From Rhina ancylostomus (lineage: Eukaryota), in NCBI GenBank assembly GCA_030265395.1, contig JARFYF010000055.1, positions 18,350,862 through 18,414,861 on the forward strand: a stretch of DNA of 64,000 bases. The letters are read 5' to 3'. Each line of letters begins with the position of its first letter. The stretch's first letter is position 1. Shown here piece after piece: positions 40,801-43,800 of this stretch. Position numbers: made by a program.

Positions 40801-43800
40801 CCACATCATATAATTGTGATCTGTTAATGTTATAAACTATACAAAGAAAAACATTCTCCACATGCAAACATATCAATATATTATTTTCAGTGTTATACAG
40901 GGGGACTATCAATGATTGCCCTCCGTACAGGGTTTTGCATACTCAATGGTCTGAAGTCATTCTTGGAGACTCAGTACTTTTAGCGATCTCACACTATTAT
41001 AGCATTAAGGAAACTGGATATAAACCAAAATATAAAAATAGCCATTAAAGTAAAATGAAAATAAGTCCTTTGAGGCTGTCGTTTAGAAGCTGCTTGAACA
41101 GATGACGACCACTGGTGGTAGTCTGACTGGTGTATCACAAGGAAAAAAGCAAACTACCGTGAATACTGATAAATAACCAGAAAATGCTGCATATTTAGGC
41201 AGCACATGTGGAGAGAGAAACAGTAATGTTCCTAACTACCNNNNNNNNNNNNNNNNNNNNNNNNNNNNNNNNNNNNNNNNNNNNNNNNNNNNNNNNNNNN
41301 NNNNNNNNNNNNNNNNNNNNNNNNNNNNNNNNNNNNNNNNCCACCACCTCCTCTGGCAGCAAGTTCCAGATATCAACCACTCTCTGTATAAAAAAAAATT
41401 ACCACTCAGATCCCTTTAAAACTCCTTTCTCTCATCTTGAGGCTATGCCCTCTTATATTTGATACTCCTACCATAGGTAAAAAGATTCTGACTATCTACC
41501 CTATCAATTCCCCTCATAATCTTGCATACCTCTATCAGGTCACTGCTCAGCCCCCTTCACTCCAGAGAAAACAAACCCAGCCTATACAGTGTCTTCCCAT
41601 AACGAAAGTCCTCCAGTCCAAGCAATATTTTGGTCAATTTCCTCTGCAATCTCTCCAATACAATTATATCCTTCCTATATGTTCTGGTGTGGTGACCAGA
41701 CTGTGCACAAGGTCAGGCAGCATCTGTGGAAGGAGAAATTAACTCTTATGTTTCAGGCCCTAGACCCTTGATTTTTTAATTTTTATTTTCATTTAATGAC
41801 AAAAATTGCAGTCAGTCCTGCTGACATAATTGAGATTCAAACTAGATTTATTGAAAAATCCTTAGTGGCTTTGGATAGCCCTCCTACCTGCCTGTCCAGG
41901 AAAACAGATGAAACTTAAAAAACAATGGCTCCAGGGTGATTAGGCTACTTCGATGTCTTTAACTGCTCCTACACCTGCGTTCCATCGTTCTCAATAACAG
42001 TATTTATTCATATTCAAGTGCCAAAGATGGGAATCTTTTAAAGGACTAGCTGTATCAAAAAAGGAAGAGAGTAACAGGATCACAAAGATCAATGCATCCA
42101 TGTTTGAATATTCTTCTGGAAGAACAATACTTGAACAATTGAGGGGAGGTGACTTATGCAAGACCATGATTTAAATATCAATATTATTTTTCAATCTTAC
42201 TGCTGATTGCGTGATGTATTAATTGGTAATTGTCACTTTACTGTGAGTCCTGGTCAAAGCAAACTTTATATGATGTTCTGTTTTGGAGTAATTTTGCAAT
42301 CTAACTGTTGCAGGTATTCACTGTCAACAATGATAATTGATTATGCACAAAGAGAATCTGTATTAACTGACAATTACATTTGTTGGTTCAGTTAAAAACA
42401 AACATGCAAGTCATACAAAACTAAATATCTGTGCACACACCTACTAGGTTTCTCTGACCCTCCCTAAACAGTCAAAGAATAGAAAAGGTTATACTCGGGA
42501 TTAGGAATTCACGCTGGCCAGGCATTCCTCTTGATCCCAAAATAATCTCCACATTTCCGACATGGGGTCACCACTTCTGCAGTGGTTGGTCTCCAGGGTT
42601 TTCGCTGCTTCTACACCTGAGAACCTCCATTTTTATCCTCTTTCTTATCAGATTGAACTGTTGTGTTTCAATTTCATTGGCTCAGGCTTATCTGGCTAGC
42701 CTGTGTCAGCTTCTCATTGAATCTGGCCCAAGGCTACAAGCAGTTCTTTATTGCTCTTCTGCCAGACTTGTGCCTCATGTCACTTTCTTTGTTCACCCTG
42801 AGACAGACCAGTTCAAACCAGCTTAGCCGGGTCAGCCAAACACTGGGCTCAGGCTTCTTCAGGTTCTTTCCATAAGCCTGCCATTTCTACTAACCAAATA
42901 AATAGCTTCTATTTAGAAATTATCTCTTTATAAAGAAGATTATTGTTAGGGACCTCACTGTGTCCACTTTCAGTTGCTCTGATCAAACCATACCTGAGCA
43001 AGAACCAGTTCACAAAACAGTTCACACAATGGTAGCCGTAAGACCAGTCTCACAAAATGGCAGCCTCCATTCCTTCCACCACATGGCAAGAACAAAGACA
43101 TTTGATTTGTTTGCTTCCAATGTCCTTGGCTCATTCCAGTTAGCTGCTTTGCAGATTTTAATTCCTTTATGGCCAACATAATATACCCAACACAGTTCCA
43201 TGAATAACCAGAGTGGATATTGTGAATTCAAGCACAAAGGGCAATCAACATTCCCTGTTGATGCTCCACTAATCAAATAATTGCATATGTTGACCCTTCT
43301 AACCAAATTTCTGTTCCTGTTATATGATGGTCTATACTAGGAGTGCTAAGCCATAAGATTTAAGATTTAAATTAAGCAGAGCTGGCTCACATAGACAACA
43401 ACCTGTTTTCTTTCCCCCAAGATACTGTGGAGAAGAGGATACAACTTATCAATAATTACTTCACCTACAGCCTGTACCTCAATGTCTGCAGGAGCCTATT
43501 TGAGAAGCACAAGCTCATGTTTGCTTTCCTGGTGTGCGTGAGGATCATGATGAATGATGACAGGATTGACATGGTCAGTAACACATCTATAAACTCCTAT
43601 GGGCTTTCCAGTGAGTTGTTATATTAAATTTTAAATTTAAATTTTATTTACAGTGTGGTAACAGGCCCTTCCGGCCCAATGAGTCTGCGCCACCCATTTT
43701 AAACCCCAAATTAACCTACCCGTATGTCTTTAGAATATGGGAGGAAACCGGAACACCTGGAAGAAACCCACACAGACACGGGAGAACATACAAACTCCTT

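What the first reader, a model, noticed from the sequence alone, without database searches (positions are those of the whole stretch)
43400..43580. Orphan DNAH1-like dynein exon inside a RUNX3 intron
Seen: a 152-nt stop-free exon with a strong polypyrimidine/AG acceptor and a GTCAGT donor, on the same strand as RUNX3, about 8.6 kb past the last Runt exon. Knowledge: the peptide matches the axonemal dynein heavy chain motor region (NVCRSLFEKHKL), closest to DNAH1, a many-exon gene that is not a RUNX3 neighbour in human. I recognised no flanking dynein exons elsewhere in the window. Inference: this is a relocated genomic fragment. It keeps its splice sites, so it is not a processed pseudogene, and it is either recent or under constraint.
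Basis: partly seen in the sequence, partly recalled or inferred. Interest (0 to 1): 0.78.

Follow-up and report, generated by a model that had tools for sequence, protein, structure and literature searches.

The report
Lone DNAH1 exon beside RUNX3 exons
One intact exon of a sperm and cilia motor gene (DNAH1) sits alone downstream of RUNX3 exons in a ray or shark draft assembly; it is most likely a harmless duplicated gene scrap or an assembly misjoin.

Summary
Window 43422-43573 (+) is a 152-nt stop-free exon between ...cccccaag| and |gtcagt. Its 50-aa peptide matches DNAH1 residues 3494-3541 (E 1.4e-18), and its ends coincide with the exon ends of a catshark DNAH1 model. RUNX3 exons lie upstream on the same strand. 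Six DNAH1 queries found no other dynein exon in 64 kb.

The new point concerns the assembly. Four of the five 100-N gaps have overlapping contig ends, so those joins are real. The exception is 41241-41340, the only link between the RUNX3 exons and the dynein block. So 41341-64000 is one continuous 22.7 kb holding a single dynein exon, with 20.4 kb downstream lacking the next exon, which lies within 7 kb in catshark. That favours a solitary unprocessed DNAH1 fragment (about 0.5) over the genuine DNAH1 exon brought in by a misjoin (about 0.35). "Inside a RUNX3 intron" rests on that one unsupported join.

The exon is undamaged: 24 of 24 invariant columns are kept. This fits a young copy or the real exon. 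No parent copy could be searched. The finding is ordinary either way, so interest is low.

The parts
43422..43573 (+). DNAH1-type exon, 152 nt, entered in phase 1 and left in phase 0. It encodes (D)TVEKRIQLINNYFTYSLYLNVCRSLFEKHKLMFAFLVCVRIMMNDDRIDM.
43406..43421 (+). Pyrimidine run followed by an AAG acceptor.
   Evidence: The exon start coincides with the first residue of the catshark partial model P0003.
43574..43624 (+). Donor gtcagt plus 51 nt of intron flank homologous to the flank read through in P0002.
   Evidence: 10 of 17 codons identical; 0 of 2000 shuffles reach the score.
43636..43875 (+). SINE-like dispersed repeat inserted 62 nt after the donor. It is absent from the P0002 read-through.
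   Evidence: (copies at 57783-57882 on the minus strand, 93%, and 62902-63056 on the plus strand, 83%).
41241..41340 (.). 100-N gap and the only link between the RUNX3 exons and the dynein block. Its contig ends share only 2 nt. The left end lies in a dispersed-repeat motif and the right end starts a dispersed-repeat copy.
46818..46917 (.). 100-N gap whose two contig ends share an exact 20-nt overlap, which supports the join.
   Evidence: the 20-mer occurs only at these two places in the window.
55013..55112 (.). 100-N gap whose contig ends share an exact 43-nt overlap. One repeat copy runs collinearly across it.
26588..26857 (+). RUNX3 coding exon starting MRIPV (N-terminus plus the start of the Runt domain).
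   Evidence: (100% identity over 90 aa to RUNX3 of Pristis pectinata).
28465..28621 (+). RUNX3 Runt exon, 157 nt, ending in phase 1.
34746..34829 (+). Last Runt exon of RUNX3. Its 5' end is lost in the N run 34514-34745, and it ends CGCA|gtaagt in phase 1.
   Evidence: 27 of 27 aa identical to P0124.

Best explanation
A single exon of the axonemal dynein heavy chain 1 gene stands alone in at least 22.7 kb of otherwise dynein-free sequence. It carries its native splice sites and at least about 50 nt of its own 3' intron. The most likely reading is an unprocessed, DNA-level duplicate of a small piece of the DNAH1 locus: a one-exon gene relic, young enough to be undamaged. If the scaffold join at 41241-41340 is right, it rides passively in the long RUNX3 intron that follows the Runt exons. 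It probably encodes nothing. At 152 nt it is not a multiple of three, it is entered in phase 1 and left in phase 0, and the RUNX3 intron is phase 1. Inclusion in RUNX3 mRNA would therefore shift the downstream frame.

Shown: the identity of the exon, its boundaries, the absence of neighbouring dynein exons, and the continuity of 41341-64000.
Inferred: that a parent copy exists in the true DNAH1 locus, that the copy is non-functional, and that it lies in RUNX3.
For: - DNAH1 identity.
- Native exon ends and a homologous intron flank, so the copy is DNA-level and not a retrocopy.
- Orphan status: tblastn with 6 DNAH1 C-terminal queries found only this exon in 64 kb on both strands; the next best E is 0.087. 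The queries were gar (1990 aa), sturgeon (1669 aa), catshark (115 aa), grenadier and two pigeons.
- No dynein Pfam family turned up in 287 of 287 plus-strand ORFs of >=45 aa or in 149 minus-strand ORFs of >=57 aa.
- Continuity to the right: the 100-N gaps at 46818 and 55013 have exact contig-end overlaps of 20 and 43 nt, and a repeat copy runs collinearly across 55013. The next DNAH1 exon (HEWHYLLSGG...) is therefore truly absent from 20.4 kb downstream. In Scyliorhinus torazame, that exon and this one share a 7017-bp contig.
Against: - The exon shows no decay. All 24 columns that are invariant in 23 named DNAH1 sequences are kept.
- With the catshark as outgroup, the window copy has as few private changes (2) as P0002 (2).
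- The exon is much better conserved than its flank: 47 of 50 against 10 of 17, Fisher p 0.0017.
- All of this is what the functional DNAH1 exon would show; a relic must be young to match it.
- No parent copy was seen, because no genome of this species could be searched.
- The join to RUNX3 at 41241-41340 has no sequence support and sits between dispersed repeats.
- No duplication breakpoints, target-site duplications or terminal repeats were found.
Confidence: 0.5

Rival explanations
1. Assembly misjoin. Under this reading 41341-64000 is part of the genuine DNAH1 locus, and the exon is the functional one. The scaffolder joined it to the RUNX3 contig across 41241-41340.
For: - That gap is the only one of 5 100-N gaps without overlapping contig ends; the other 4 overlap by 16, 20, 43 and 38 nt (the last with one mismatch).
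- Both its flanks lie in dispersed repeats.
- No RUNX3 exon lies right of the gap.
- The exon is perfectly conserved and evolves no faster than P0002.
Against: - The piece is continuous for 20.4 kb past the exon with no further dynein exon. The catshark has the next exon within a 7017-bp contig.
- The intron would therefore have to be more than three times longer here.
- The 2.1 kb upstream of the exon also has no dynein exon.
Confidence: 0.35
2. An exon captured and moved by a transposable element (transduction or a Pack-type capture). This is a special case of the relic reading.
For: The block is rich in dispersed repeats. Inverted copies of one family flank the exon at 41710-41762 and 45652-45704 (53 nt, 75% complementary). 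A SINE-like element lies 62 nt after the donor.
Against: - The flanking inverted pieces belong to a family with 5 motif copies across the window, so they need not form a pair.
- No target-site duplication was found.
- No transposase or reverse-transcriptase ORF was found in the block.
- The AT-rich direct repeat around the exon (D8) is partly the 5' end of the SINE-like element itself.
Confidence: 0.05
3. A functional, exapted exon. In this reading it is spliced into RUNX3 transcripts as an alternative or 'poison' exon, giving a Runt-only protein with a dynein-derived tail, or it belongs to an unknown nested gene.
For: - It is on the same strand as RUNX3.
- Both the RUNX3 donor at 34829 and the dynein acceptor are phase 1, so the dynein frame would be kept on entry.
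- The splice sites are intact and there is no decay.
Against: - A 152-nt exon shifts the RUNX3 frame downstream.
- None of the 120 listed proteins of 89-2000 aa that hold the peptide is a RUNX protein.
- The phase match has a one-in-three chance.
- There are no partner exons.
Confidence: 0.04

Closest known systems
Unprocessed (duplicated) pseudogene fragments, or gene relics, in vertebrate genomes
   Same: A DNA-level copy that keeps exon-intron boundaries and intron flanks. It is isolated from the rest of the gene and lies inside another gene's intron.
   Different: It covers one exon only, carries no disabling change, and neither the parent copy nor the duplication ends have been seen.
Scaffold misjoins at repeats in draft assemblies
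   Same: A fixed-size N gap with no contig-end overlap, bounded by dispersed repeats, separates two unrelated genes' exons.
   Different: The piece beyond the join does not look like a normal DNAH1 locus: 20.4 kb of it holds no next exon.
Processed pseudogenes (retrocopies)
   Same: A stray piece of coding sequence away from its gene.
   Different: Homology ends exactly at both exon boundaries, and splice sites and intron flank are present. This class is rejected.
Genuine DNAH1 exon encoding the start of the AAA6 region (placement recalled; residues 3494-3541 in PDB 8j07_g6)
   Same: Sequence, boundaries, phases, and residue states shared among the elasmobranch sequences (L8, Y15, L19).
   Different: No collinear neighbouring exons in the window.

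Membership tests
DNAH1 coding exon | Best sequence match is DNAH1 rather than another dynein heavy chain. | tested here: met
   the three best PDB hits are DNAH1 (E 1.4e-18 to 3.1e-17); the best other named paralogue, DNAH12, scores 3.4e-12; every listed hit that a source names as a specific dynein is called DNAH1 / dynein heavy chain 1.
DNAH1 coding exon | Exon ends coincide with the native exon ends. | tested here: met
   the catshark model P0003 begins at TVEK, and its match to the window stops at IDM, after which P0003 continues with the next exon.
DNAH1 gene locus | Collinear neighbouring DNAH1 exons on the same strand. | tested here: not met
   all 6 queries hit only 43421-43576; no dynein Pfam family in the 436 ORFs scanned. 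The N-terminal half of DNAH1 was covered only by the Pfam scan.
Processed pseudogene | Homology runs across exon junctions without introns. | tested here: not met
   no match to residues on either side of the exon next to it.
Unprocessed duplicated fragment | Intron flank of the parent gene retained. | tested here: met
   the 3' flank has 10 of 17 codons identical to the P0002 read-through, and 0 of 2000 shuffles reach the score. The 5' flank is inconclusive because it is a pyrimidine tract.
Unprocessed duplicated fragment | A parent copy exists elsewhere in the same genome. | not testable with these tools
   No eukaryote genome collection is available. Searches found no protein closer than P0002 (94% in the exon).
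Unprocessed duplicated fragment | Signs of neutral decay. | tested here: not met
   24 of 24 invariant columns are kept, with no stop codon; both splice sites still carry their AG and GT.
Scaffold misjoin | The junction lacks sequence support. | tested here: met
   a 2-nt overlap at 41241-41340 against 16-43 nt at the other four 100-N gaps. This shows only that the join is unsupported, not that it is wrong.
Scaffold misjoin | Reads, mate pairs or Hi-C contradict the join. | not testable with these tools
   No read data are available.
Alternative RUNX3 exon | Keeps the RUNX3 reading frame and appears in RUNX3 isoforms. | tested here: not met
   152 nt, phase 1 in and phase 0 out; 0 of 120 listed hits is a RUNX protein.

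The most novel reading that the evidence does not exclude
The lone dynein exon is a conserved, exapted element of the elasmobranch RUNX3 locus. Its phase-1 acceptor matches the phase-1 donor of the last Runt exon. Its inclusion would yield a truncated Runt-only RUNX3 with a 51-residue dynein-derived tail, or it would act as a poison exon that tunes RUNX3 dosage. That would explain why the exon is kept intact.
Probability: 0.04. Interest if true: 0.55.

Novelty: new member of a known kind. Interest (0 to 1): 0.2.

Why it matters
It matters little for biology. If real, it is one more duplicated gene scrap in an intron, of interest mainly as a marker for dating a small duplication in a slowly evolving lineage. 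If it is a misjoin, it flags an error that would break two gene models in this assembly: DNAH1 would lose a 152-nt exon and shift frame, and RUNX3 would lose its 3' exons. One by-product is practical. Four of the five 100-N gaps in this window are contigs that overlap by 16-43 nt, so such gaps mark real adjacency, and the gap without an overlap is the one to distrust.

Tried and rejected
- Pfam on the 50-aa peptide found 0 families at E<=1. The segment lies outside the Pfam dynein models, so this says nothing against the identity.
- A weak minus-strand 'dynein' match at 44204-44576 (E about 0.1, with stop codons) was rejected. At DNA level the exon against that stretch scores 12, and 37 of 300 shuffles reach that.
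- The AT-rich direct repeat around the exon (D8), considered as a possible target-site duplication, was rejected. Its right copy is partly the 5' end of the SINE-like element.
- Inverted repeats I1 and I2, considered as transposon ends, are copies of a dispersed family and give no evidence of capture.
- Rfam on the block gave 0 matches.
- A near-length protein search with the 83-aa read-through ORF, meant to find the same or a second copy in this species, found nothing closer than P0002: 84% identity over 82% of the query (147 hits among 152 candidates, 120 listed).
- I did not run a search for a full-length elasmobranch DNAH1. The only long query available (gar) is closer to teleosts (83-86 of 115) than to catshark (76 of 115).
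- One search used a faulty end-gap setting, and its flank count (1 of 17) is void. One search replaces it.
- Literature: one search, 'DNAH1, RUNX3, shark' with at least 2 of the 3 terms, returned 196 papers, of which I saw 10 as a listing. None of those 10 has DNAH1 in its title or abstract; the only one holding all three terms is a mesothelioma study. I read passages of PMC3974841 (elephant shark Runx genes). It gives CmRunx3 as 74 kb with conserved exon-intron boundaries, and the passages shown do not mention a dynein exon.

Full report
WHAT IS THERE

Window 43422-43573 (+) is a 152-nt exon. It follows a pyrimidine run and an AAG acceptor (43406-43421) and is followed by the donor gtcagt. 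The frame is open from 43376 to 43627. The acceptor has A at position -3 and the donor has C at +3, so the sites are usable rather than ideal (consensus recalled, not computed).

The 50-aa peptide (P0001) gets no Pfam family. In a PDB search it matches 58 distinct dynein heavy chain sequences at E<=1. The three best are all DNAH1 (E 1.4e-18 to 3.1e-17; residues 3494-3541 of 4265 in 8j07_g6). DNAH12, DNAH7, DNAH2, DNAH3 and DNAH6 follow at 3.4e-12 and weaker.

In the large protein set, searched for lengths 89-2000 aa, 160 of 165 candidates passed E 1e-5 and 120 were listed. The best two were:
- P0002, an unnamed read-through ORF, 94% identical.
- P0003, a partial Scyliorhinus torazame model, 90% identical.

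The listed hits that a source names as a specific dynein are all called DNAH1.

P0003 starts exactly at the window exon's first full codon and continues after ...IDM with the next exon, HEWHYLLSGG.... The window's splice sites are therefore the native DNAH1 exon ends.

The 51 nt after the donor are homologous to the read-through flank of P0002: 10 of 17 codons identical with two indels, and 0 of 2000 shuffles reach the score. The copy is therefore DNA-level, not a retrocopy.

CONTEXT

I take the window for an elasmobranch, not human. Three RUNX3 exons lie upstream on the plus strand:
- 26588-26857 (starts MRIPV).
- 28465-28621 (157 nt).
- 34746-34829. Its 5' end is lost in the N run 34514-34745, which I did not fill.

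The first exon is 100% identical over 90 aa to RUNX3 of Pristis pectinata, 96% to Leucoraja erinacea and 95% to S. torazame. The last exon is 27 of 27 identical to the Pristis protein.

No later RUNX3 exon lies in 34830-64000. As assembled, the intron is therefore at least 29 kb long and runs off the window.

From the phases alone:
- The RUNX3 donor at 34829 is phase 1.
- The dynein acceptor is phase 1 and its donor is phase 0.

Inclusion would therefore keep the dynein frame on entry but shift RUNX3 downstream. None of the 120 proteins listed is a RUNX protein.

IS THE EXON ALONE?

I ran tblastn with six DNAH1 C-terminal pieces: gar 1990 aa, sturgeon 1669 aa, grenadier 1541 aa, two pigeons and catshark 115 aa. 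All six hit only 43421-43576 (E 1.7e-27 to 3.4e-20). The next best hit has E 0.087.

A weak minus-strand match at 44204-44576 carries stop codons and is at chance level in DNA: 37 of 300 shuffles reach its score.

The Pfam scans found no dynein family:
- All 287 plus-strand stop-to-stop ORFs of >=45 aa gave two Runt matches, one sub-threshold RVT_1 and three sub-threshold chance hits.
- The 149 minus-strand ORFs of >=57 aa gave nothing at E<=0.001.
- The 123 minus-strand ORFs of 45-56 aa were not scanned.

THE ASSEMBLY

The window has nine N runs. Five are exactly 100 N. At four of these the contig ends overlap:

| Gap start | Overlap |
|---|---|
| 4733 | 38 nt with one mismatch |
| 30710 | 16 nt, ending in a G run |
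| 46818 | 20 nt, exact |
| 55013 | 43 nt, exact |

Each exact overlap string occurs only at its two ends in the window. At 55013 a repeat copy also runs collinearly across the gap. The gap at 30710 lies between two RUNX3 exons in the right order. Overlap-type gaps therefore mark true adjacency.

The exception is 41241-41340, where the ends share 2 nt and no 14-mer within 200 nt. Its left end lies in a dispersed-repeat motif that has 5 copies in the window against 0.01 expected. Its right end begins a copy of another dispersed repeat, with further copies at 37031-37287 and 54840-55263.

Two consequences follow:
1. 41341-64000 is one continuous 22.7-kb stretch with a single dynein exon, 2.1 kb of it upstream and 20.4 kb downstream.
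2. All RUNX3 evidence lies left of the one join that has no sequence support.

CONSTRAINT

The window peptide keeps all 24 columns that are invariant in 23 named DNAH1 sequences. It shares residue states found only in the three elasmobranch-type sequences (L8, Y15, L19). With the catshark as outgroup, the window and P0002 have two private changes each (read). The exon is much better kept than its flank: 47 of 50 against 10 of 17, Fisher p 0.0017. This fits the functional exon or a young copy.

WEIGHING

For a misjoin of the genuine DNAH1 locus:
- The join at 41241-41340 is unsupported and bounded by repeats.
- The exon is perfect.

Against it: the next DNAH1 exon shares a 7017-bp contig with this one in catshark but is absent from 20.4 kb here.

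For a solitary duplicated fragment: exactly that absence, together with the DNA-level nature of the copy.

Against it: no decay, no parent copy seen and no breakpoints found.

My estimates are:
- Duplicated fragment: about 0.5.
- Misjoin: about 0.35.
- Transposon-mediated capture: about 0.05.
- Functional exonisation: about 0.04.

These are judgments, not computed posteriors.

WHAT STAYED UNCHECKED

The conserved-noncoding-element table (Table S2) of PMC3974841 might have shown whether 41341-64000 carries RUNX3 intronic elements.
- No protein closer than P0002 exists in the sets searched.
- I did not trace the origin of P0002.

Noticed in passing
window 4733-4832, 30710-30809, 46818-46917, 55013-55112: Four of the five 100-N gaps are flanked by contig ends that overlap: 38 nt with one mismatch, then 16, 20 and 43 nt exact. 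These gaps look like unmerged overlaps rather than missing sequence. The four gaps of other sizes (331, 8, 98 and 232 N) show no overlap.
   Followed up: yes
window 34514-34829: The last Runt-domain exon of RUNX3 is cut at its 5' end by a 232-N run. Only 84 nt (34746-34829) are readable, so any gene model here will be incomplete.
   Followed up: partly
window 43636-43875, 57783-57882 (-), 62902-63056 (+), 50554-50604 (-): Copies of a SINE-like dispersed repeat, 83-93% alike. One sits 62 nt after the dynein exon's donor.
   Followed up: partly
window 41349-41674, 37031-37287, 54840-55263; motif at 2219, 13309, 41196, 41714, 45680: A second dispersed repeat family whose copies are about 70% alike. 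In addition, a 21-nt motif (CAGGCAGCATCTGTGGAGAGA-like) is found 5 times against 0.01 expected. Contig breaks at 41241 and 55013 fall in these repeats.
   Followed up: partly
window 5578-5724 (+): A short reverse-transcriptase-like ORF piece (Pfam RVT_1, 22 bits, below the 29.6-bit cut-off), probably a decayed retroelement.
   Followed up: no
window 26588-26857: The exon begins with the MRIPV start. Two shark and skate isoforms (P0125, P0128) align only from their residue 20, which suggests a second, upstream first exon. I did not look for it in 1-26500.
   Followed up: no
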